The notes beneath the pieces were generated by a model. That model ran no database searches and was not told the origin of the DNA. It saw only the letters and a list, made by a program, of their open reading frames with translations. A DNA stretch of 64,000 nucleotides from Candidatus Ryanbacteria bacterium RIFCSPLOWO2_12_FULL_44_26 (GTDB taxonomy: Bacteria; Patescibacteriota; Minisyncoccia; Ryanbacterales; HO2-45-13). Within the stretch, counting starts at the first letter, position 1; each line of letters begins with the position of its first letter. Location: NCBI GenBank assembly GCA_001821765.1, contig MHOA01000001.1:1580-65579 (forward strand). The letters are read 5' to 3'. Below are positions 53,442-64,000 of the stretch, piece after piece. Made by a program: the position numbers and the translations under genes.

Positions 53442-53503
53442 ATACATAAGGTATAATACACTCTATAGTTTGCTTTGCGTTAGTTCGCATTTATAGCATA
53501 CAT

Positions 53504-53532
53504 GCGTCGGTGGCGGAGTGGACAATCGCACC
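53504..53532 (+). repeat. 29-nt exact copy of the 5' end of the downstream tRNA-Tyr gene (acceptor 5' strand + D-arm)
   Basis: Identical to 53797-53825; immediately followed by hairpin CCCCGC-TATAA-GCGGGG. Confidence 0.7.
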
Positions 53533-53558
53533 CCGCTATAAGCGGGGCGGCCTTATAT

Positions 53559-53834
53559 ATGTGGTATGTTTATATTCTTAAGAGTAAAAAGGATAATAAA
53601 TATTATATTGGATGTACATCAGATTTAGATAAACGTCTTGTTCGTCATAATAAAGGAGGCAATAAATCTACTAAAAACAGGAAACCGCTTGAGCTTATTC
53701 ACCGTGAGTTATATGATGATAAACATCAAGCTCTAGCCAGAGAACGAAAGATAAAAAGTTATAAGGGTGGTGATGAGTTTAAGAGGTTAATATCAGGCGT
53801 CGGTGGCGGAGTGGACAATCGCACCAGACTGTAA
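53559..53834 (+). CDS. Small GIY-YIG nuclease-domain protein (COG2827/YhbQ-like); stop codon lies in the tRNA-Tyr anticodon loop
   Basis: WYVYIL...YYIGCT...R..H...ERKIKSYKG GIY-YIG motifs; ORF runs into tRNA-Tyr. Confidence 0.6.
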   Translation: MWYVYILKSKKDNKYYIGCTSDLDKRLVRHNKGGNKSTKNRKPLELIHRELYDDKHQALARERKIKSYKGGDEFKRLISGVGGGVDNRTRL

Positions 53835-53883
53835 ATCTGGCGGCCTCAGGCCTACGCAGGTTCGAATCCTGCCCGGCGCACCA
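53797..53883 (+). tRNA. tRNA-Tyr (anticodon GUA), long variable arm, CCA encoded
   Basis: GCGTCGG/CCGGCGC acceptor, CCAGA-CTGTAAA-TCTGG anticodon arm, GCAGG-TTCGAAT-CCTGC T-arm. Confidence 0.85.
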
Positions 53884-55579: not shown

Positions 55580-55682
55580 TATAATTAAATGCCGCCACTT
55601 CGATAAACTCAGTGCAAGCAAAGAAAAACTTGTGGTTCGGCAGACTTACCATCCTGAGTTTATCGGAGGAAAATTGTCAGCG
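55580..55682 (+). promoter_or_regulatory. Copy B of duplicated TATAAT + structured leader element
   Basis: Same conserved blocks as copy A with a 23-nt insertion and compensatory stem changes (GTCCT/AGGAC vs GTGGT/ACCAT). Confidence 0.5.
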
Positions 55683-56127
55683 GTGCTGCTCCCCGCCTGC
55701 GCCGAGGCTTGGTTCGGCTTTACTCACCATAAGTCGCTCAGTGCAGGCCGCCGCATTTCTGAATTTTCGCGGGGGGATTTCCTCGCCCTTCGATTGACTC
55801 AGGGCGAAATGCCGAAGGTACTGAGGAACGAAGTATGTTCGGATTTTGTCAAACAAGCGCATATCAAAATGAATACCCAGATTTTTACTGGATATTCATT
55901 TTGATAAGTTTTCAGAAGGAAAGCCGTTTTCTACTCAAGTCCTCTTCGGCGGGGTAAAGAAGGCGGCCTCATAACAAACCGCGAGCTTTGTTATGGGATT
56001 TGCCGTATAAAAAGGTTTTTTTAACCTATGTTTAGGCACAATCTGCCATAGTCCTTTTTGAAAAGTTTTAGTATGCTAATAATAGCGTCGTTATCTATTT
56101 TTTATGGAACGTAGACAATAAAATAAA

Positions 56128-57258
56128 ATGTTTAGGGAAAAGAAAGGTAAGGGCAAGACGAAAATTAAAAAACTGTCAAAGCAGAAAAAACGGCCCCCAA
56201 AAAGAGCTCCCAAGAGCATTAAAAGAAAGACAGAAAAGAAAAAACAACCTGGCACGCCGGCTCTTGTAAGAGCAGTAGAAAATCCGATTATTCTGCCAAA
56301 ACCCGAACATCACTGGGAGGCATGGCAGACGTTTAACCCCGGAGTTATCTTGCTTGAAGATAAAATACATTTTCTCTATCGAGCAATCGGGGAAGACGGT
56401 ATCTCGCGTTTCGGATATGCTGTTTCCAGTGATGGATTTGCGATTGATGAGCGATTACCAAACCCAGTTTTCGAGCACCGCTTCACAAAGCCGGTGTTTA
56501 ATTTTTATTCTTTTGTTTCAGGAGGAAGTTTCGGGGGGAGCGAAGATCCGCGCATTGTTCAGGTAAACGGAGAAGATACATTATATATGACTTATACTGC
56601 TTGCGATGAAGGATTGAGAATGGCCTTGTCATCAATAAAAGTTAAGGACTTTTTACGGAAAAAGTGGACATGGGAATTGCCGGTTTTGATCTCGCCGCCC
56701 GGAGAACTTCATAAAAACTGGGTTATTTTCCCGGAAAAAATAAATGGGAAGTATGCTGTCTTGCACAGCATCAGCCCTGAAATATCCATCGCTTATCGCG
56801 ACAGTTTGGAATTTCAAGAAGGCGAATACATTTACAGTTTTTATAACGGCAATAATAGCCAAAGAAAAAATTGCTGGGATAGTTGGGTGCGGGGCGTTGG
56901 GGCGCCGCCGATTAAAACAAATAAAGGCTGGCTGTTGTTTTATCATGCCATCGATGAAAGCGACCCCGGCAAGTACAAGGTTGGCGCCATGCTTCTGGAT
57001 ATACATAATCCGGCTAAAATACTTTGCCGCTCTCAAGAACCAGTTCTGGAGCCGGAAAAAGATTATGAAAGCAACGGTTTTAAAGCGGGTGTTATATATG
57101 TATCCGGAGCGGCGGTGAAAAACGGAGAACTTTTGGTGTATTATGGCGCTTCGGATAGCTATATCAGTGTGGCCCACGCACCAGTAGAGGAATTTTTGAA
57201 CAGATTAATAAGTCAGGCCAAACCGAAACTCAAGGCAAAAACTCTAAAGGGAACATAA
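56128..57258 (+). CDS. GH130/DUF377-like beta-propeller glycosidase/phosphorylase-family protein with highly basic N-terminal tail
   Basis: ...EDPRIV...YMTYTA... pattern; N-terminal 45 aa K/R-rich. Confidence 0.5.
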   Translation: MFREKKGKGKTKIKKLSKQKKRPPKRAPKSIKRKTEKKKQPGTPALVRAVENPIILPKPEHHWEAWQTFNPGVILLEDKIHFLYRAIGEDGISRFGYAVSSDGFAIDERLPNPVFEHRFTKPVFNFYSFVSGGSFGGSEDPRIVQVNGEDTLYMTYTACDEGLRMALSSIKVKDFLRKKWTWELPVLISPPGELHKNWVIFPEKINGKYAVLHSISPEISIAYRDSLEFQEGEYIYSFYNGNNSQRKNCWDSWVRGVGAPPIKTNKGWLLFYHAIDESDPGKYKVGAMLLDIHNPAKILCRSQEPVLEPEKDYESNGFKAGVIYVSGAAVKNGELLVYYGASDSYISVAHAPVEEFLNRLISQAKPKLKAKTLKGT

Positions 57259-57259
57259 G

Positions 57260-59182
57260 ATGATTATTGAGCGCTTTAAGAAAAATCCGATACTCACGCC
57301 GGATAAAAATCAGTCTTGGGAAGCTGAGGCTGTTTTTAATGGTTGTCCTGTTCGGAAAGGAAATAATGTTTTTCTCCTTTATCGTGCCGTTTCTCTGATC
57401 CATTATCACACGTTGGCAAAAGCAAAACTCATGGTGTCTGATATCGGTATTGCCGAAAGCAAAGACGGGCTCAATTTTTATGACCGAAAACGGTTTATTT
57501 TTCCAGAGCACGAGTGGGAAAGGTTCGGTTGTGAAGATCCGCGAATAACAAAACTGGACAACAAATACTATATCTTTTATACCGCGCTTTCAAGCTGGCC
57601 TCCCCGAACGGAGCATATAAAAGTAGGACTTGCCATAAGCAAAGATTTAAAAACGATTGAAAAAAAACATCTTATAACCCCCTTCAACGCTAAAGCAATG
57701 GCTCTTTTTCCGGAAAAAATCAATGGCAAAATCTGGGCGGTTTTGACGGTGCACACTGATCGGCCGCCGGCAAAAATATGCCTTGTTTCTTTTCAAAGAG
57801 AAGAAGATATCTGGAATGAATCATATTGGAATAAATGGTATCAAAATTTTGATAAGTATTCTTTGCCGCTTCAACGCCGGCCGCAGGACCATATCGAAGT
57901 CGGCTCTCCGCCGATAAAAACAAAACATGGCTGGCTTTTATTTTATTCCTATATTTGGGATTATATTTCTCCCCGAAGGTCTTTTAGTATTGAAAGTGTA
58001 CTGCTGGATTTAAAAAATCCTTTTAAGATTATCGGAAAAACCGATTTCCCACTTCTTTCTCCTGAAGATTATTATGAAAAACACGGTATAGTGCCGAATG
58101 TCGTTTTTCCTTCCGGAGCGTTACTGAATAAAAATACGATCTCATTATATTATGGAGCCGCAGATACTACCTGTGCGGTTGCTTTTATTGATCTCCCCTC
58201 GCTTATTGATAAGTTTATAAAAAAACAAATCGTTCTGATAAAGCTTCGTCGAGCCAACATAAATCCAATCATCACGCCAAACAAAAATCATCCTTGGGAA
58301 GCAAAAGCGACATTCAACCCGGCGGCCATGTATCTTAAAGGAAAAGTTCACCTGCTTTATCGGGCAATGTCGGAAGATAACACTTCAGTGCTTGGTTATG
58401 CGACAAGTCGGGACGGCATTCACATAGATTATCGTTCTCCGGAGCCGGTTTATATTCCTCGGGAACAATTTGAACAAAAGCTTGAAAGGGGAGGAAATTC
58501 AGGCACGGAAGATCCGAGACTCGTAAAAATTGGGAGCAGAATTTATATGTTCTATACCGCCTTTGATGGGAAAAATCCGCCGCGAGTGGCTTTCACTTGG
58601 ATTAAAGAGCAGGATTTTTTAAACAAGAAGTGGGATTGGTCGCGTGCCATGCTTATCTCCGCTCCTGATTTGGATGATAAAGATGCAGCTATGTTTCCGG
58701 AAAAAATAAAAGGGCGGTACCTTATTATTCATCGCGTCGGCGACGATATTGATTTCTCTCATCATAAAACACTGGATTTTAACGGGACGAATTGGCTTGA
58801 AGAGTATCGCTGGATAATGCCGAGGAAAGGACGGTGGGATTCGAGAAAGGTTGGTGTTGCCGCTCCGCCGATAAAAACAAAGGCAGGCTGGCTTCTGCTC
58901 TATCACGGAATTTCAGAAGAAGACCAGTTTTATCGCGTAGGAGCGATATTAGTTGGTTTGCGTGATCCTGCAAAAATTATCTGTCGCACGGATTATCCGA
59001 TTTTTGAACCGGAAACTTCTTATGAAAAAGAAGGAGAGGTTTCAAATGTGGTATTTCCTTGTGGGGCGGCACTTATTGGCAAAAAACTTTTCGTATATTA
59101 CGGAGGAGCGGATAAAGTGGTTGGAGTGGCTACGGTGAATATTGATGAGCTTCTCGGTGTGCTTAAGGTATGTAAATGTTAG
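57260..59182 (+). CDS. Tandem double GH130/DUF377-like domain protein
   Basis: Two repeats of the same fold (EDPRIT..., EDPRLV...), 640 aa. Confidence 0.5.
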   Translation: MIIERFKKNPILTPDKNQSWEAEAVFNGCPVRKGNNVFLLYRAVSLIHYHTLAKAKLMVSDIGIAESKDGLNFYDRKRFIFPEHEWERFGCEDPRITKLDNKYYIFYTALSSWPPRTEHIKVGLAISKDLKTIEKKHLITPFNAKAMALFPEKINGKIWAVLTVHTDRPPAKICLVSFQREEDIWNESYWNKWYQNFDKYSLPLQRRPQDHIEVGSPPIKTKHGWLLFYSYIWDYISPRRSFSIESVLLDLKNPFKIIGKTDFPLLSPEDYYEKHGIVPNVVFPSGALLNKNTISLYYGAADTTCAVAFIDLPSLIDKFIKKQIVLIKLRRANINPIITPNKNHPWEAKATFNPAAMYLKGKVHLLYRAMSEDNTSVLGYATSRDGIHIDYRSPEPVYIPREQFEQKLERGGNSGTEDPRLVKIGSRIYMFYTAFDGKNPPRVAFTWIKEQDFLNKKWDWSRAMLISAPDLDDKDAAMFPEKIKGRYLIIHRVGDDIDFSHHKTLDFNGTNWLEEYRWIMPRKGRWDSRKVGVAAPPIKTKAGWLLLYHGISEEDQFYRVGAILVGLRDPAKIICRTDYPIFEPETSYEKEGEVSNVVFPCGAALIGKKLFVYYGGADKVVGVATVNIDELLGVLKVCKC

Positions 59183-59392
59183 CAGGCCTTAAAAAAGCAA
59201 TTGGAAAGTAAGTGGCGCGTAGAAACAAAAAGACCCGATTTGTTTCGACGGATCGATTCTTTTATTTTCACCTGTCAAAATATTTGACAAGCAAGATTAC
59301 TTGATATATACTTGAAGCAGATCATCTAGAATGAGAATACGGTATTCTCATTCTATTGCGCAATAAAACCGGGAACTTTAAGGAGTCCAAAG

Positions 59393-59698
59393 ATGGATGT
59401 ATGTACATATGGAAATGCAACTCGGGAAGGGACGTTGCTCTGTATCTTTCATACCTTGAACCTGAAGTTCTATCATGTGAAGATGAATTGGAACGGCGCT
59501 CCTTTTCAAGATAGCGTGTCTGTGTGCGGTCGCTTCTCCAATCTTGCGGAGTGCGATGGGAGTTGCACTGAATATGCCCGGCGCGAGTTTACGCTCGACG
59601 AAGCGGATGCGGAGGAACTCAAGAGAATGCTCGAGGATTACGAAGAAGATAAGCTTGACGCGCAGCTTCTCGCAACTGAGATTAAGGATGAGTTTTAG
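59393..59698 (+). CDS. Hypothetical acidic protein (101 aa), locally GC-rich
   Basis: AAGGAG RBS 7 nt upstream of ATG; followed by GCCCAA..TTGGGC hairpin. Confidence 0.45.
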   Translation: MDVCTYGNATREGTLLCIFHTLNLKFYHVKMNWNGAPFQDSVSVCGRFSNLAECDGSCTEYARREFTLDEADAEELKRMLEDYEEDKLDAQLLATEIKDEF

Positions 59699-59868
59699 TA
59701 CATTGTTAAAGTGGGGCCGAAATAGGCGGCTCAACAGGAAAAGTCTCCGATATTGGTTTGATCCCATATGGGAGATTTTGTCTTAAGCCCAAGTCTGATT
59801 TGGGCTTCTGCCAAAGCATTCAATACTCATTGAGCATTTTGGTAGAACTGGCATATTGAAACAAACAC

Positions 59869-59897
59869 TTGCAATCTTGCACGTATTGTGCTATGCT
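59869..59897 (+). promoter_or_regulatory. Sigma70-like promoter TTGCAA-17-TATGCT
   Basis: Read from sequence. Confidence 0.45.
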
Positions 59898-59903
59898 CAA
59901 CCT

Positions 59904-60171
59904 TGTCCGATGCTGGGAAGCTTACCGAGCCGGCAAAACTCAGCGCTTGAGGACAACAGATGCGCTCGGACCCTAGGGAAAATGGCGTTTCCCGGCCACT
60001 CTCGGGTAATGACAGGGATAGGTTCCGCAAGGAAAGCTGGCCCGAACGGAACCGAAAAGAAGAACAGCGGCCAATACACATGACCCCAGTGTGTAGGCGT
60101 CAAAAAAGCCGTGAAGGTATGGGGCCGCCCCCTCCGAACGCTAATGCTAGTAGGAGGGGGTTTTTCTTTTT
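59904..60171 (+). ncRNA. Candidate small RNA (~267 nt) from promoter to intrinsic terminator; contains an SRP-RNA domain-IV-like GNRA hairpin (possible long-form ffs)
   Basis: No plausible ORF; AGGUUCC-GCAA-GGAAAGCUGGCC at 60021-60043 resembles the SRP RNA AGGUCC-GGAA-GGAAGCAGCC; terminator CCCCCTCC...GGAGGGGG+T run at 60128-60171. Confidence 0.4.
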
Positions 60172-60262
60172 AATAAAGAGTTAAAAATTGTCGTTGGATG
60201 AAAAATTTGTTACTATGCTTATAGTTTTTTAGCGGGAGTAGTTCAGTTGCACCGCCACATTT

Positions 60263-60338
60263 GCCCAAGTAGCTCAGCTGGTAGAGCAACTCCATGGTAA
60301 GGAGTAGGTCAGCGGTTCAAGTCCGCTCTTGGGCTCCA
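60263..60338 (+). tRNA. tRNA-Thr (anticodon GGU), CCA encoded
   Basis: GCCCAAG/CTTGGGC acceptor, ACTCC-ATGGTAA-GGAGT anticodon arm, AGCGG-TTCAAGT-CCGCT T-arm. Confidence 0.85.
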
Positions 60339-60521
60339 GTTTTGTAGAAAAAGATACAGAAGCACCCAGAGCGTGGGACGCGCTTCGCGCGTCCCACCAA
60401 AAAATCGGTCTTTTGTCTGAAAATCGGATTCTGGAGTATATTTACGACCTCGCTAGAACCTATTTTATCAAAAATGCCTGACCAAAGGAAGCCGCCCCGC
60501 CGCCGCTCGCTAACGCTCGCC

Positions 60522-60605
60522 GCCAAGCAAAATACTCTTTACGATTTCGGATTTGCGCGCGCCACCAAAAAATTCTTCTAAAAAGAAAAGAGTATTTTGC
60601 TTGGC
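60522..60605. repeat. 19-bp perfect inverted repeat (GCCAAGCAAAATACTCTTT / AAAGAGTATTTTGCTTGGC) with 46-nt loop
   Basis: Read from sequence; lies in a GC-rich hairpin-dense region. Confidence 0.7.
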
Positions 60606-60727
60606 TCTGCTCTGAACGAGCAGGCGACGGGGCTGGCCTCTATTTTTGCTCGCGGGGGCAAGGCGTTTCCTCCCCCTCGCCCCCTCCACGCCTTGCCCGC
60701 TCGCCAAAAAAGTTGGGTGGGTTGGGA

Positions 60728-61198
60728 TCAAAACTGTTGCACGGCGGTTTTGAGAACCGCTTTGGTGGCGTCAGAGATGTTGGGCGTGTTGAACGCTTCA
60801 TCCGAGAGTGCTACCAAGTAATACGCTTGGTGTTCGCTGGGTTCCAGTTTGACCTCGTCGTCGGGAGCGGTTTCGACGAGAAAGTTAAACTGTCTCGTCT
60901 TTTTGCCGGAACCGGACGTATAGTCGAATGGACCGAGATACGCGAGGACCGTCGTGATGACAAGCCCTGTTTCTTCTTGAACTTCCCGAGCAAGCGCCGT
61001 GAGCAAGTCTTCACCTGCATCTACGGTACCGCTCGGAAGTTCGACGAGTCCGCCCATGAAGTCGGACGGAATGCGCTCGAGAAGAAGAAACTTGCCTTCC
61101 TTGCGGATTACCGCTCCAATGACCAGCTTTTGAATACCATCCTTTTGGGAATCGGTAACCAGTTGCTCGAGGGTGTTATGATCAACGTTTGACTGCAT
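60728..61198 (-). CDS. NUDIX hydrolase
   Basis: Nudix box GGLVELPSGTVDAGEDLLTALAREVQEETGL. Confidence 0.75.
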   Translation of the reverse strand: MQSNVDHNTLEQLVTDSQKDGIQKLVIGAVIRKEGKFLLLERIPSDFMGGLVELPSGTVDAGEDLLTALAREVQEETGLVITTVLAYLGPFDYTSGSGKKTRQFNFLVETAPDDEVKLEPSEHQAYYLVALSDEAFNTPNISDATKAVLKTAVQQF

Positions 61199-61224
61199 AG
61201 TTTTCCTTATTTAACAAAAGAGTT

Positions 61225-61824
61225 TTAAAAATCTTTAACCACTTTTTTCTTTACAAGCGTTTGATAGTGGTTTGGTTTTGCTCGTTTTAAGTATTCAATA
61301 ATTTTCCCTCGCGCTGGAGTTATTGTAAGATTCTGCGATTTTGCAAAATCCATTATCATTTCAATCGCGCTTTCAATTTCAGATTTATCGCTCACCAGCA
61401 ACTCAATCTCTGCAATGTTGTAGGTAAAGTCTTGAAAATCAACAATATCGAGGTCAATGATAAATAGTCCCTTTTTATATTTTCTTCGCGTAGTTTTACA
61501 AGTGCAAAACGGAAAATACCCCGCTTTTATTAAATCGTCCGCAAGGTTTTTATTTGGAAGCAGATTTAGGGCTCGTCTAATTTTCTGTTCATCTTCCAGC
61601 TCATCATATTGGTCAGCTAACCTTTCTACTCCATTGTGCAGAGGAAGTTTTAGCTCAAACACCCTATCACGAGAACGGAGCCATTTGTCTTGCGAAGTTA
61701 GTAGAAATTTTTCGGTATCATAGTAAATATCGCTAAAAACTCGCTCGCTCAAAAACTCAGCATCTTTTGTGAGCTGTTTTTTATCTTGTTCACTAAGAAT
61801 AAATTTTTTTTCCACTTCAATCAT
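61225..61824 (-). CDS. CYTH-domain protein (triphosphate tunnel metalloenzyme; CyaB/ThTPase-like)
   Basis: N-terminal IEVEKKF (ExExK) signature. Confidence 0.6.
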   Translation of the reverse strand: MIEVEKKFILSEQDKKQLTKDAEFLSERVFSDIYYDTEKFLLTSQDKWLRSRDRVFELKLPLHNGVERLADQYDELEDEQKIRRALNLLPNKNLADDLIKAGYFPFCTCKTTRRKYKKGLFIIDLDIVDFQDFTYNIAEIELLVSDKSEIESAIEMIMDFAKSQNLTITPARGKIIEYLKRAKPNHYQTLVKKKVVKDF

Positions 61825-62564
61825 AAACTTAATTGAGTAATAAGCGCGGAGTGGTCGCTTAGCTTTTGTAATCTTGGTTCATGAAGGTAAACCGAATTTT
61901 TTGTAGCGGGCAATAAGGCATTTGAAACAAAACAATGGTCATAACGGTATCCATCGCCCGTTTTTCCTACCCAGCTATATTCTTGCTTGGATGGATGCAG
62001 AAAACGCCACGCGTCGCTTAATTGATATTGCAGTAATTGAATATAAAAATTGTATTCCCAATTCTTGAAGAATGGGTAGCGTGGCCTATGATTGGGTTCA
62101 AGTACATTAAAATCTCCGCAAACAACGCGCATATTGTTTGAGTTTAATTTCTGGAGAGCACTCAAAAGAGCTTGTAAAAAAAGCTTCTTTCTTTTTATTT
62201 TTTCGTTGCTTACATCGCGAGAGGGGACATAAATACCCACAACTTCTATATTTTTACCAAAAAATGAAAATTTCCCGCACATAACCCGCGACGGGATAAA
62301 ATTCATATATTTAAGAGTCCCTCCCGATATAGGAATTTTGCTCACAATCATTGACCCATATTCTTTATGCTCAATATCAGGAAAGAGCACATGATACCCG
62401 TATGCCTCAAAATATTTTTTCAAAAACAAACATCCACGACTTGTTTTTATCTCGGTTAAAACAAAAATATCTTCTTTTCTTTTGCGAATCCATTCCGCTT
62501 GTTTGGCGGCGCGCTCAGGCGATGGGTTAGCTATATTCCAAGTAAAAATAGATAGGTTTTGCAT
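61821..62564 (-). CDS. Endonuclease/exonuclease/phosphatase (ExoIII-like) family protein
   Basis: WNIAN..., VLTEIK, CGDFN, SDHSAL motifs. Confidence 0.7.
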   Translation of the reverse strand: MQNLSIFTWNIANPSPERAAKQAEWIRKRKEDIFVLTEIKTSRGCLFLKKYFEAYGYHVLFPDIEHKEYGSMIVSKIPISGGTLKYMNFIPSRVMCGKFSFFGKNIEVVGIYVPSRDVSNEKIKRKKLFLQALLSALQKLNSNNMRVVCGDFNVLEPNHRPRYPFFKNWEYNFYIQLLQYQLSDAWRFLHPSKQEYSWVGKTGDGYRYDHCFVSNALLPATKNSVYLHEPRLQKLSDHSALITQLSL

Positions 62565-62584
62565 ATTACTTTAATCAATTTTAC

Positions 62585-62625
62585 CACAAAAAATCCCGCA
62601 GCAGAATACTTAAATCCTACTGCGG
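62585..62625 (-). terminator. Rho-independent terminator downstream of radical SAM gene
   Basis: CCCGCAG...CTGCGGG stem followed by ATTTTTTG on minus strand. Confidence 0.55.
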
Positions 62626-62632
62626 GTGCGTT

Positions 62633-63703
62633 TTACGGATTAACGATTGGGCATACCTCCGCGTCCACTTCCTCAATGCGTTTGCCCGAAGAAATGACTG
62701 CTGCGGGACACCCTTTGCCACACTCCGCGTTAAGACGACATCCTTCGCAAGTCGGATTGCCACCGAGACGATATCGCTCATGGAGCTTGTATTCATCAAG
62801 ACGGGTAGCAATATCGGCATCACGGAAGATGTTGCCAACAATGAACTCTTCCGCCTTGTGCTGGCTTTGCGGAGTCCGCGCCGCAAACACGAGATAGGGA
62901 CACACCGTGAGTTCGCCGAGAGTAAAGACATAGATGATGTTGCCCGCTTCGCATCCTGCGAGCGGCAACTTCTTTTCGTTCGGGAATCGGATGTAGACCA
63001 TTTCAACTTTGTCCGCAAACTGCAAAGTTGTGTTGGCGATCTGACGCATCACTTCATCGGGAGCTCCGAGCTTTCCCGTCGTCCTTACGCCCCTTCCCAT
63101 GGAGGAAAGCGGATTCATCAACATGTATGTCGCGCCGTTTTCCACCGCGAACTCGCAGAGCTTAGTGTATTCCTCAGCCTCAGCGAGGTTGTTGGGAGTC
63201 ACCAAAAGCCCTTGCAGCAAACCATATTTAGCCAATGCCTCAATGGTCGCGATGGTAGTTGCGAACGACGTTTTGTCGCCGCGAAACCTACCATGGCTTT
63301 CAGGAGAAAAGCCATCCAAGCTGACGTTGCAGTGCGCACCCAATTCCACGAGTTGTTTCATCTGATCTTCGCTAATGCGGGTTGCGTTTGTGCAGATGCC
63401 AACTTTCATACCAACATTTTTGTAGAGCGATACGATCTCGATGATATCCTGGTATGCGAATGGTTCGCCGCCGGTAAGCGTAACACTCACCACGCGGCAC
63501 TCTTTGAGACGCGGTACGAGGATGTCGCGGATACTCTCCAGCGACATGGTATCGCCGTATTGTCCAGCCGAGACGAAGCAATGCGCGCAATGTAGATTGC
63601 ACCATTCGGTAATCTGCACGAGCGCTTTCCGGTGCGGCGGCTGAACTGATGTGCGGAAGTAGCAGGACGCCATCTGGTTGGCGGAAATGATGGATTTTTT
63701 CAT
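62633..63703 (-). CDS. Radical SAM enzyme with C-terminal SPASM/twitch auxiliary cluster domain
   Basis: CNLHCAHCF (Cx3Cx2C) and C-terminal CEGCRLNAECGKGC...C cluster; GGAGG RBS; ATGA overlap with upstream kinase-like gene. Confidence 0.75.
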   Translation of the reverse strand: MKKSIISANQMASCYFRTSVQPPHRKALVQITEWCNLHCAHCFVSAGQYGDTMSLESIRDILVPRLKECRVVSVTLTGGEPFAYQDIIEIVSLYKNVGMKVGICTNATRISEDQMKQLVELGAHCNVSLDGFSPESHGRFRGDKTSFATTIATIEALAKYGLLQGLLVTPNNLAEAEEYTKLCEFAVENGATYMLMNPLSSMGRGVRTTGKLGAPDEVMRQIANTTLQFADKVEMVYIRFPNEKKLPLAGCEAGNIIYVFTLGELTVCPYLVFAARTPQSQHKAEEFIVGNIFRDADIATRLDEYKLHERYRLGGNPTCEGCRLNAECGKGCPAAVISSGKRIEEVDAEVCPIVNP

Positions 63704-64000
63704 GACACTTCCTCCTTCATGTTGAGTAGCTTTTGAATTTCAATCACAATGCATTCAGAAGTATCGCCAACAGGTTGTTTGTCATTCTCCAACAAGAGAA
63801 CATTAAACCCTTTTTGGACGATGAATTCTGCCGCTTCGCGGTAGAAACGCATCTCTTGTTCTCTCGTTTCTTCGCGTTCAAATCGACTTAGTTTTGTTCG
63901 CTCGATTGCGAGCCGTTGTCCGAGAATAGTGGGATCAGCGACGAGGATAACGCTTAAATCAGGAGCGAGAACTTGCGAGTTAATGCTCCAGATGAATTCA
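63701..64000 (-). CDS. P-loop nucleoside/nucleotide kinase-like protein (dTMP-kinase-like C-terminal region), 5' end beyond window
   Basis: Minus-strand frame open to window edge; C-term ...DPTILGQRLAIERTKLSRFEREETREQEMRFYREAAEF... typical of the lid/C-terminal helices of Tmk/dNK-type kinases. Confidence 0.4.

What the first reader, a model, noticed from the sequence alone, without database searches (positions are those of the whole stretch)
59869..60171. Promoter-to-terminator ~267-nt RNA with an SRP-RNA-like domain IV hairpin
A TTGCAA-17-TATGCT promoter at 59869 is followed ~265 nt later by a strong intrinsic terminator (CCCCCTCC...GGAGGGGG plus U-run). No credible ORF lies between.

The transcript is full of GC hairpins. 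The segment CAGGGAUAGGUUCC-GCAA-GGAAAGCUGGCC (60010-60043) parallels the SRP RNA helix-8 motif CAGGUCAGGUCC-GGAA-GGAAGCAGCC. It has a GNRA tetraloop closed by CC/GG and flanking purine-rich strands.

The length fits a long (Bacillus-type) SRP RNA. It could also be 6S RNA or an unassigned sRNA.
Basis: partly seen in the sequence, partly recalled or inferred. Interest (0 to 1): 0.6.

Follow-up and report, generated by a model that had tools for sequence, protein, structure and literature searches.

The report
Orphan small RNA unit, not SRP

Summary
The sequence features exist. TTGCAA-17-TATGCT (with an extended -10 TG) lies at 59869-59897. A GC-rich body with no credible ORF starts at the predicted +1 (59903). 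A strong intrinsic terminator lies at 60128-60171 (rank 5 of 519 in the window).

The SRP reading fails. No Rfam SRP, 6S, RNase P or tmRNA model matches at E<=10 when 701, 275 or 86 nt are searched. The domain-IV-like string AGG-UUCC-GCAA-GGAA-AGC is real and rare by chance (~0.04 per window), but it only caps a 37-nt local hairpin. The surrounding 91-151 nt fold no better than shuffles (z +0.2 to +0.5; the E. coli 4.5S control gives -3.15). Only the 3' 118 nt, a Y-shaped terminator domain, is significantly structured (z -4.8).

No homologue was found in any protein database, genome, metagenome, viral, plasmid or phage search. Every recovered copy is 100% identical and comes from one Rifle population. 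The unit lies in strain-variable, rearranged DNA between tRNA-Tyr and tRNA-Thr(GGT), which are adjacent in relatives.

Best reading: an orphan stand-alone non-coding transcription unit. The main rival is an inert spacer with a terminator. Interest is low.

The parts
59869..59897 (+). Putative sigma-70-type promoter: -35 TTGCAA (59869-59874), 17-nt spacer, extended -10 TGcTATGCT (59889-59897). Predicted +1 at about 59903-59906.
   Evidence: Sequence read directly. The 8/12 match plus TG is not rarer than chance (14 observed, 12.9 expected per strand). TATGCT is 1.9-fold enriched in intergenic DNA and lies upstream of the adjacent tRNA-Thr and of GH130. GC steps up at 59903. Inferred; no expression data.
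59903..60053 (+). 5' body of the predicted transcript: GC-rich (0.50-0.60), non-coding, with no defined secondary structure.
   Evidence: z = +0.16, 107 of 200 shuffles fold as well, and the centroid is far from the MFE. Overlapping ORFs have non-coding codon statistics. No Rfam match.
60011..60047 (+). Local hairpin with a GCAA tetraloop (60027-60030) closed by UUCC/GGAA and flanked by AGG (60020-60022) and AGCU (60035-60038). This is the 'SRP domain IV-like' string. It competes with an alternative 7-bp helix, GGUUCCG 60021-60027 / CGGAACC 60047-60053.
   Evidence: The motif is unique in the window, with 0.043 expected. The 37-nt hairpin gives z = -1.87 and does not extend into a rod. In the full-length ensemble the alternative helix has probability 0.86. 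No SRP model matches when only 86 nt are searched.
60054..60171 (+). Well-defined Y-shaped 3' domain. A 12-bp closing helix pairs the A-rich tract GAAAAGAAGAAC (60054-60065) with the terminator U-tract GUUUUUCUUUUU (60160-60171). Arm 1 is GCGGCC 60067-60072 / GGCCGC 60123-60128, enclosing hairpin 60075-60095. Arm 2 is the terminator hairpin.
   Evidence: z = -4.76, 0 of 200 shuffles fold as well, and MFE equals centroid. Pair probabilities are 0.97-1.00. Arm 1 alone gives z = -1.79. The minus strand folds less well (-41.4 vs -47.9 kcal/mol, z = -3.18).
60128..60171 (+). Intrinsic (Rho-independent) terminator: 8-bp G+C stem CCCCCUCC/GGAGGGGG, a 17-nt loop, and an 11-nt U-tract.
   Evidence: Sequence. 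-21 kcal/mol, rank 5 of 519 in the window (-21.5 kcal/mol).

Best explanation
This is a stand-alone, lineage-restricted small non-coding transcription unit of Candidatus Ryanbacteria (Parcubacteria/CPR).

Proposed mechanism: transcription starts about 6-9 nt downstream of an extended -10 promoter (TGcTATGCT), runs through about 150 nt of GC-rich, ORF-free and essentially unstructured RNA, and ends at a strong Rho-independent terminator. That terminator is embedded in a stable Y-shaped 3' domain. The product would be an RNA of about 265-270 nt with the generic layout of a bacterial trans-acting sRNA: an accessible 5' body and a protective 3' hairpin with a U tail. The same terminator also shields the tRNA-Thr(GGT) gene 92 nt downstream from upstream transcription.

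Shown: the terminator, the absence of coding potential, the GC block that coincides with the predicted transcript, the lack of membership in any Rfam family, and the lack of any homologue.

Inferred: that the promoter fires, that the RNA accumulates, and that it has any function. No target or partner could be identified. It is not the SRP RNA.
For: - The terminator is strong (rank 5 of 519).
- The upstream orphan gene has its own terminator hairpin at 59736-59784 (-19.7 kcal/mol, U-rich tail), so a second strong terminator 350 nt further on implies a separate unit.
- GC rises from 0.33-0.43 to 0.60 exactly at the predicted +1 and falls to 0.20-0.37 after the terminator stem, as it does for the neighbouring tRNA.
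- The -10 hexamer TATGCT is enriched in intergenic DNA and is used upstream of the adjacent tRNA-Thr and of GH130.
- No ORF has coding statistics, a Pfam hit or a homologue.
- The 3' domain is highly significant and strand-asymmetric in favour of the + strand.
- The unit is kept 100% identical in all 14 recovered copies of the population, including two structural variants.
Against: - The -35/-10 match is no better than chance as a string.
- The 5' 151 nt have no structure beyond composition.
- No homologue exists beyond one clonal population, so there is no evidence of selection. The 100% identity carries no information, because the flanks are 99.9% identical too.
- Close relatives that share the tRNA-Thr lack the RNA.
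- No complementarity to the translation-start regions in the window exceeds the null.
- There are no expression data.
Confidence: 0.5

Rival explanations
1. Inert spacer. The GC-rich stretch is a decayed remnant of foreign or rearranged DNA with no dedicated transcript, and the promoter match is coincidental. The strong hairpin plus U-tract, with its complementary upstream A-tract, acts only as a partly bidirectional terminator or insulator. It would sit between the GH130/orphan-gene unit, the tRNA-Thr(GGT) gene and the convergent Nudix operon.
For: - The promoter is at chance level.
- The body has z of about 0.
- There is no conservation anywhere.
- The locus lies in a rearrangement-prone region. 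tRNA-Tyr and tRNA-Thr(GGT) are 10-40 nt apart in relatives but 6.4 kb apart here. Variant breakpoints lie at 55582 and 60442.
- Other GC-rich non-coding patches lie nearby (60600-60750 is 64-68% GC).
- The 3' domain also folds significantly on the minus strand and is followed there by a U-rich tract.
Against: - The GC block starts exactly at the predicted +1 and ends at the terminator.
- The upstream gene already has its own terminator.
- The -10 hexamer is one this genome uses.
- No trace of a former gene was found in the two frames tested, and Pfam finds nothing in four ORFs.
Confidence: 0.35
2. A highly divergent SRP RNA (long or Bacillus type, or a novel CPR type). Its helix-8 apex would be the AGG-UUCC-GCAA-GGAA-AGCU hairpin, which would bind the Ffh M domain.
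For: - The string motif is unique in the window and rare by chance (0.043 per 64 kb).
- The tetraloop fits GNAR, and GACA and GGG/CCC flank it much as ACCA and GG(U)/(G)CC do in E. coli 4.5S (sequence comparison).
- The apex lies near the middle of the transcript, and the length resembles large SRP RNAs.
- No ffs was found in the ~90 kb of this genome that I could scan.
Against: - No SRP model of any domain of life matches at E<=10, even when only 86 nt are searched.
- The stem is 4 bp rather than 3, and a U replaces the conserved A63-equivalent.
- There is no helix 5/8 rod: z = +0.33 and +0.50 at 91 and 121 nt, against -3.15 for genuine 4.5S.
- In the full-length ensemble a competing helix, GGUUCCG/CGGAACC, is favoured (probability 0.86).
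- The 20-nt core is absent from all other species representatives.
- The RNA is absent next to the same tRNA in relatives and sits in strain-variable DNA.
Confidence: 0.03
3. Another housekeeping RNA too diverged for Rfam: a reduced RNase P RNA of the kind reported for some CPR genomes, or a 6S RNA.
For: - Lui et al. 2021 (PMC8172020) found that 10 of 35 complete CPR genomes have RNase P RNAs below Rfam thresholds.
- The sequence contains GGAAAG(C)U, reminiscent of CR-I, and ACAG..GGCCAAUA, reminiscent of CR-IV/V.
- GC(U)GGCC at 60036-60042 could pair with GGCCGC at 60123-60128, leaving a bulged U as in P4 (my inspection).
Against: - RF00010, RF00011, RF00013 and related models give nothing at E<=10 on the 275-nt transcript.
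- The motif spacing is incompatible with RNase P architecture. Only ~80 nt lie between the putative P4 strands, where the whole S-domain plus P15 should be, while 128 nt lie upstream, where P1-P3 need about 60.
- GGCCGC pairs with GCGGCC 60067-60072 at probability 0.99 instead.
- There is no rod with a central bubble as in 6S, and the body has z of about 0.
- The RNA is not conserved.
Confidence: 0.04
4. A small protein gene: the 74-codon ORF at 59960-60184 (ATG preceded by GAGGA at -6), which one assembly's gene caller predicted.
For: An SD-like GAGGA lies 6 nt upstream of the ATG. The ORF was called as a gene in L006.
Against: - The codon log-likelihood is -0.088, against 0.242 +/- 0.052 for real genes.
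- The ORF runs through the terminator hairpin and the U-tract.
- The only match among 5.8 billion protein clusters is the ORF itself, and there is no Pfam hit.
- This genome rarely uses SD sites (7 of 38 genes).
Confidence: 0.02

Closest known systems
Bacterial SRP RNA (4.5S/ffs, Rfam RF00169 Bacteria_small_SRP; Bacillus-type RF01854 Bacteria_large_SRP)
   Same: A GNRA/GNAR tetraloop hairpin flanked by 5' AGG and 3' AGC. There are G-C pairs below it and a 4-nt purine/C-rich 5' bulge (GACA against ACCA). The overall length is similar to the large type.
   Different: - No covariance-model match at any threshold I could reach.
- A 4-bp rather than 3-bp apical stem, and AGCU rather than AGCA.
- No extended helix 5/8 rod and no Alu-domain signature.
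- Thermodynamically indistinguishable from shuffles.
- Not conserved in any other genome, and located in strain-variable DNA.
Generic trans-encoded bacterial sRNAs with Rho-independent terminators (for example the Hfq-dependent sRNAs of enterobacteria; knowledge of the class, not tested by homology)
   Same: Its own promoter, no ORF, an accessible 5' body, and a stable 3' terminator hairpin with a U tail. It is intergenic and orphan or lineage-restricted, as many sRNAs are.
   Different: At the long end of the size range. No seed or target was identified. No chaperone is known in CPR bacteria. There is no conservation even at genus level, and expression has not been shown.
Diverged RNase P RNAs of CPR bacteria (Lui et al. 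2021, PMC8172020)
   Same: A CPR host, escape from Rfam gathering thresholds, and a GGAAAG motif.
   Different: Those RNAs were still found with RF00010 at lowered thresholds and keep the P1-P4 core architecture. Here nothing is found, and the motif spacing cannot form the P4 pseudoknot core.
Bidirectional intrinsic terminators (hairpin flanked by complementary A- and U-tracts)
   Same: The U-tract pairs over 12 bp with an upstream A-rich tract. The module also folds significantly on the minus strand, where a U-rich run follows it.
   Different: The A-tract is 63 nt upstream of the terminator hairpin, with an extra branched arm in between. This gives a three-way junction rather than a simple hairpin.

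Membership tests
SRP RNA (RF00169 / RF01854 and other SRP clan models) | Scores against the family covariance model (sequence plus structure) | tested here: not met
   No SRP model is listed at gathering score on the 64 kb, or at E<=10 on 701 nt, 275 nt or 86 nt centred on the hairpin.
SRP RNA (RF00169 / RF01854 and other SRP clan models) | Helix 8 apex: a GNAR tetraloop on a short stem, with a symmetric loop of 5' AGG / 3' AGCA | tested here: inconclusive
   GCAA fits GNAR, and AGG and AGC are present. However, the stem is 4 bp rather than 3, the fourth loop base is U rather than A, and A18/G39-G40 disrupt the next helix. This is a string-level resemblance only.
SRP RNA (RF00169 / RF01854 and other SRP clan models) | Long, stable helix 5/8 rod pairing the 5' and 3' halves around the apex | tested here: not met
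   z = +0.33 at 91 nt and +0.50 at 121 nt around the apex. The 5' 151 nt give z = +0.16. The verified E. coli ffs control forms a rod with z = -3.15 and MFE equal to centroid.
SRP RNA (RF00169 / RF01854 and other SRP clan models) | Universally conserved single-copy housekeeping gene, so its core should be conserved in related species | tested here: not met
   The 20-nt core pattern gives only 10 chance hits in unrelated phyla among ~185,000 species genomes. Relatives that share the adjacent tRNA lack the RNA. Caveat: a pattern scan finds only exact matches.
SRP RNA (RF00169 / RF01854 and other SRP clan models) | Binds Ffh M domain; no other ffs in the genome | not testable with these tools
   Only ~90 kb of this organism's DNA could be reached (the window plus the flanks in L029, L030, L032 and L035). 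No ffs was found there.
6S RNA (RF00013 and variants) | Covariance-model match; a ~180-nt rod with a large central bubble that mimics an open promoter | tested here: not met
   No 6S model matches at E<=10. The predicted fold is multibranched and diffuse, and the body has z = -0.03.
RNase P RNA (RF00010/RF00011), including diverged CPR forms | Covariance-model match at lowered threshold; a P4 pseudoknot formed by CR-I and CR-V more than 150 nt apart, enclosing the S-domain | tested here: not met
   No RNase P model matches at E<=10 on the 275-nt transcript. The CR-I-like and CR-V-like strings are 30 nt apart. The alternative P4-like pairing (60036-42 with 60123-28) leaves only 80 nt for everything between, and pairing with 60067-72 out-competes it (probability 0.99).
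tmRNA | tRNA-like domain plus a tag reading frame | tested here: not met
   ARAGORN finds no tmRNA in the window. There is no Rfam tmRNA match.
Stand-alone bacterial sRNA gene (generic class) | Intergenic, with its own promoter | tested here: inconclusive
   An extended -10 promoter with correct spacing is present, but the match is at chance frequency. Supporting points: TATGCT usage and the GC step at +1.
Stand-alone bacterial sRNA gene (generic class) | Rho-independent terminator at the 3' end | tested here: met
   An 8-bp GC stem plus an 11-nt U-tract, rank 5 of 519. The 3' domain has z = -4.76.
Stand-alone bacterial sRNA gene (generic class) | No protein-coding potential | tested here: met
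   Codon statistics, no Pfam hit, and no homologues.
Stand-alone bacterial sRNA gene (generic class) | Detectable transcript; conservation or an identified target | not testable with these tools
   No expression data are available. No homologues were found. The in-window target screen equals the null.

The most novel reading that the evidence does not exclude
The hairpin at 60011-60047 is a genuine Ffh-binding helix-8 mimic. The RNA would then be either an extremely divergent CPR-type SRP RNA that escapes all current covariance models, or an accessory RNA that titrates Ffh. In the first case SRP RNA architecture in Parcubacteria would be far more plastic than assumed: no helix-5 rod and a strain-variable locus.
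Probability: 0.03. Interest if true: 0.65.

Novelty: new member of a known kind. Interest (0 to 1): 0.14.

Why it matters
It matters little. If the unit is transcribed, it would be one more orphan sRNA candidate. It would have modest value because my one literature search for small RNAs in Parcubacteria found no paper, and because it could be checked cheaply against existing Rifle metatranscriptomes. The useful result is negative: the attractive 'SRP domain IV' resemblance is a local string coincidence without model, structural or evolutionary support, so the locus should not be annotated as ffs, 6S or rnpB. The neighbourhood may deserve more attention than the RNA itself. It holds tRNA-linked rearrangements, a partial tRNA-Tyr duplication next to a GIY-YIG gene, and 290-bp inverted spacer repeats that bracket a five-gene block found next to different tRNAs.

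Tried and rejected
1. Synteny route. The upstream 101-aa ORF is an orphan. The tandem GH130 protein has hundreds of Patescibacteria relatives at 68-80% identity, but downstream synteny is lost and their loci contain no RNA.
2. Spurious-ORF route. I searched the 74-aa + frame ORF against 5.8 billion clusters and the 84-aa - frame ORF with full HMMER against 1.84 billion representatives. The results were self only and nothing.
3. DNA pattern scans. Four RNA segments against viral contigs gave one chance hit in a coding region. The core motif against genome contigs gave 10 chance hits. In neither the genome scan nor the metagenome scan (item 4) was the source species returned. I take this to mean its region is masked in those collections.
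4. Anchoring on the adjacent tRNA-Thr in metagenome contigs. This returned three relatives, none with the RNA.
5. blastn against plasmids and phages found nothing.
6. Members of the 90% clusters (P0125, P0130) and other exact-protein look-ups returned only 99.6-100% identical DNA, with the RNA invariant or absent.
7. No covariation analysis or custom covariance model was possible, because only one sequence variant exists.
8. A mobile-element reading of the RNA itself was rejected. There are no terminal inverted or direct repeats around it, and no repeat of the tRNA-Tyr 3' end as an att site.
9. Weak Rfam matches were rejected as chance: RAGATH-9 (18.9 bits, gathering score 75), ClpQY_promoter and DUF3800-X (about 13 bits, on the terminator hairpin), Transposase-1, DUF805b and sR2 (8-11 bits).
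10. A duplex screen of the 5' body against 67 translation-start regions in the window gave a best energy no better than 57% of shuffles. The unrestricted duplexfold model is also crude.
11. A CsrA-sponge idea was considered. I counted the GGA motifs by eye: about 8, against about 6 expected from composition. I did not pursue it.

Full report
What is in the sequence

- -35 TTGCAA at 59869-59874, then a 17-nt spacer.
- -10 TATGCT at 59892-59897. It is preceded by TGc, so it is an extended -10.
- A body of about 225 nt.
- The terminator CCCCCUCC (60128-60135) / GGAGGGGG (60153-60160), followed by UUUUUCUUUUU (60161-60171).

tRNA-Thr(GGT) follows at 60263-60338. Upstream lie two GH130 genes and a 101-aa orphan ORF. 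Downstream, on the minus strand, lie Nudix, CYTH, an endonuclease/exonuclease/phosphatase-family gene and a radical SAM gene. The window comes from Candidatus Ryanbacteria MAGs from Rifle groundwater (GCA_001819835.1, contig MHNP01000011.1).

Is each element more than chance?

The terminator is. In my scan it ranks 5th of 519 U-tract-adjacent hairpins in the 64 kb.

The promoter string is not. Matches at 8/12 with a TG occur 14 times on the + strand against 12.9 +/- 2.9 in Markov simulations. Three things nevertheless make it plausible:
- TATGCT is 1.9-fold enriched in intergenic DNA, and it sits 44 nt upstream of the adjacent tRNA-Thr and 51 nt upstream of a GH130 gene.
- GC content steps from 0.33-0.43 to 0.60 exactly at the predicted +1 (59903) and falls to 0.20-0.37 after the terminator stem.
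- The upstream orphan gene has its own terminator-like hairpin at 59736-59784 (-19.7 kcal/mol), so the second, stronger terminator implies a separate unit.

'No credible ORF' holds. The four overlapping ORFs of 68-84 aa have codon log-likelihoods of -0.16 to +0.03 per codon, against 0.242 +/- 0.052 (minimum 0.132) for 38 real genes. The GAGGA before the ATG at 59960 carries no weight, because only 7 of 38 genes have an SD-like motif. Pfam finds nothing.

Structure

'Full of GC hairpins' is not supported for most of the RNA.
- Whole transcript: z = -1.72.
- Without the terminator hairpin: z = -0.03, with 104 of 200 shuffles folding as well and a centroid of -16 against an MFE of -71 kcal/mol.
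- 5' 151 nt, which contain the SRP-like hairpin: z = +0.16.
- 3' 118 nt (60054-60171): z = -4.76, with 0 of 200 shuffles as good and MFE equal to centroid.

The 3' part forms a Y shape. A 12-bp closing helix pairs GAAAAGAAGAAC with the terminator U-tract. One branched arm is closed by GCGGCC/GGCCGC. The other arm is the terminator hairpin. Pair probabilities are 0.97-1.00. The branched arm alone is marginal (z = -1.79). The minus strand folds less well (-41.4 against -47.9 kcal/mol), which fits + strand function with some bidirectional character.

The SRP hypothesis

The string AGG-UUCC-GCAA-GGAA-AGC is the only such motif on either strand of the window. About 0.043 are expected per 64 kb, and about 3e-4 in a 226-nt body of this composition (the test was defined after the fact). 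Everything beyond the string fails:
- No SRP model (bacterial small or large, archaeal, or eukaryotic) appears at gathering score, or at E<=10 when 701, 275 or only 86 nt are searched. What does appear are chance matches of 8-19 bits to unrelated families.
- The hairpin is local. z is -1.87 for 37 nt, -1.28 for 61 nt, +0.33 for 91 nt and +0.50 for 121 nt. E. coli 4.5S RNA, whose sequence I verified as ffs in 5,425 genomes, gives a rod with MFE equal to centroid and z = -3.15.
- In the full-length ensemble a competing 7-bp helix, GGUUCCG/CGGAACC, is preferred (probability 0.86).
- The details differ from the consensus: a 4-bp rather than 3-bp apical stem, and AGCU rather than AGCA.
- The 20-nt core, with the loop left degenerate, is found in no related genome. 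The 10 hits among ~185,000 species representatives are in unrelated phyla, match the chance expectation of about 9, and do not extend beyond the seed.

RNase P, 6S and tmRNA

Lui et al. 2021 report that 10 of 35 complete CPR genomes have RNase P RNAs below Rfam thresholds (PMC8172020), so I examined this possibility explicitly.
- There is a GGAAAG motif like CR-I and an ACAG..GGCCAAUA string. They are 30 nt apart.
- The only P4-like alternative (60036-42 with 60123-28) leaves 80 nt for the entire specificity domain, and pairing with 60067-72 out-competes it.
- No RNase P model appears at E<=10 on the transcript alone.
- 6S is excluded by the missing rod and the missing model match.
- tmRNA is excluded by ARAGORN and Rfam.

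Search for homologues

Every route failed:
- The orphan upstream ORF has no relatives.
- GH130 relatives at 68-80% identity do not share the downstream synteny and have no RNA in their loci.
- Pseudo-proteins translated from the RNA have no match in 5.8 billion clusters or 1.84 billion representatives.
- Viral contigs, plasmids and phages give nothing.
- Fourteen recovered copies (L001-L006, L024, L025, L029-L034) come from one Rifle population. They are 99.86-100% identical over the flanks, and the RNA in them is 100% identical. That gives no information about selection.

No covariation analysis was therefore possible.

Genomic context

Three metagenome contigs share the first 42 nt of the tRNA-Thr(GGT). 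In them, tRNA-Thr(TGT) and/or tRNA-Tyr, then tRNA-Thr(GGT), then rpmG are packed with 10-40-nt spacers, and the RNA is absent. In this genome tRNA-Tyr (53797) and tRNA-Thr(GGT) (60263) are 6.4 kb apart, and rpmG is not in the window. Two near-identical variants break away at 55582 (L030) and at 60442 (L035, where the Nudix block abuts tRNA-Cys and there is no RNA or tRNA-Thr). The RNA therefore lies in lineage-specific, recombinationally active DNA. That is not where a universal RNA gene would be expected. No ffs, rnpB or ssrS was found in the window or in ~25 kb of extra flanks, but most of the genome was out of reach.

Conclusion

The best-supported reading (about 0.5) is an orphan, stand-alone non-coding transcription unit. 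It would have an extended -10 promoter, a ~150-nt unstructured GC-rich 5' body and a stable Y-shaped 3' terminator domain, which is the generic layout of a bacterial trans-acting sRNA. Its terminator would also insulate the downstream tRNA-Thr. The promoter's activity, the RNA's accumulation and any function are inferred, not shown. A screen for complementarity to translation-start regions in the window gave nothing above null.

The main rival (about 0.35) is an inert GC-rich remnant with a functional, partly bidirectional terminator. Divergent SRP RNA (about 0.03), another housekeeping RNA (about 0.04) and a small protein (about 0.02) are unlikely.

The finding is ordinary and of low interest.

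Noticed in passing
window 53503-53883: A second copy of the 5' part of tRNA-Tyr lies at 53503-53553. Its acceptor strand and D arm are identical to the real tRNA-Tyr for ~30 nt, but its anticodon arm is different (CCCCG-CUAUAAG-CGGGG). A ~91-aa GIY-YIG nuclease ORF follows immediately (53559-53834, Pfam 1.3e-17), and its 3' end overlaps the start of the intact tRNA-Tyr (53797-53883). This looks like a GIY-YIG gene inserted at the tRNA with partial tRNA duplication.
   Followed up: partly
window 60432-60723 and L029 8966-9253 (about 450-740 nt beyond the window's right end): The spacer between tRNA-Thr(GGT) and Nudix has a 70-79% identical copy in inverted orientation on the far side of the Tmk-radical SAM-EEP-CYTH-Nudix block, with tRNA-Trp about 530 nt beyond it, so ~290-bp imperfect inverted repeats bracket the five-gene block. 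Conserved blocks include TGGAGTATATTTACGACCTCGCT and GGGCAAGGCG-loop-CGCCTTGCCCGCTCGCCAAAAAAGTTGGGTGGGTT. The ~23-nt loop of that hairpin is reverse-complemented between the two copies.
   Followed up: partly
L035 1-2290 vs window 60442-62655: A 99.6%-identical copy of the EEP-CYTH-Nudix block plus spacer sits in a different genomic context, next to tRNA-Cys, RbfA and IF-2. The breakpoint is exactly at the edge of the repeated spacer (window 60442). This suggests that the block moves or recombines at tRNA-linked spacer repeats, although no integrase or transposase is visible.
   Followed up: partly
L030 vs window, breakpoint at window 55582: This is a structural variant of the same population. 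It is 99.99% identical to the window from 55582 to 64000. To the left it carries PP2C and hypothetical genes, tRNA-Arg and HtrA, where the window has Nudix x2, the 208-aa ORF, GIY-YIG, tRNA-Tyr and ClpB.
   Followed up: partly
window 60352-60395 (minus strand) and 60522-60605: A very strong hairpin, GUGGGACGCGC-GAAG-GCGCGUCCCAC, is followed 6 nt later by a second small hairpin and then a U-rich run on the minus strand (-26 kcal/mol, rank 2 of 519). It lies just past the 3' end of tRNA-Thr and is probably the terminator of the convergent Nudix operon. A 26-nt-arm inverted repeat lies at 60522-60605. There is no Rfam family in the 400-nt spacer.
   Followed up: partly
window 59284-59698: An 11/12 consensus promoter (TTGACA-17-TATACT, 59284-59312) is followed by a perfect 14+14-nt palindrome (59327-59355) and then the orphan ORF. 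The 71-codon version of that ORF (from 59483) has gene-like codon usage (LLR 0.238), yet it has no homologue among 5.8 billion clusters.
   Followed up: partly
L026 (reverse complement) about 2700-2900, between tRNA-Tyr and tRNA-Thr(GGT): In a relative, the 3' end of tRNA-Tyr (CCCTCACCGCCCAAAA) occurs three times, the first two each followed by a ~55-nt segment. This resembles att-site or tandem duplication scars, and it suggests that this tRNA spacer is an insertion hot spot in the group.
   Followed up: no
window, gene starts (for example 15280 and 24445): Only 7 of 38 confident genes have an SD-like motif. Several have a -10-like box (TATAAT) within ~10 nt of the ATG, which suggests frequent leaderless mRNAs in this Ryanbacteria genome.
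   Followed up: no
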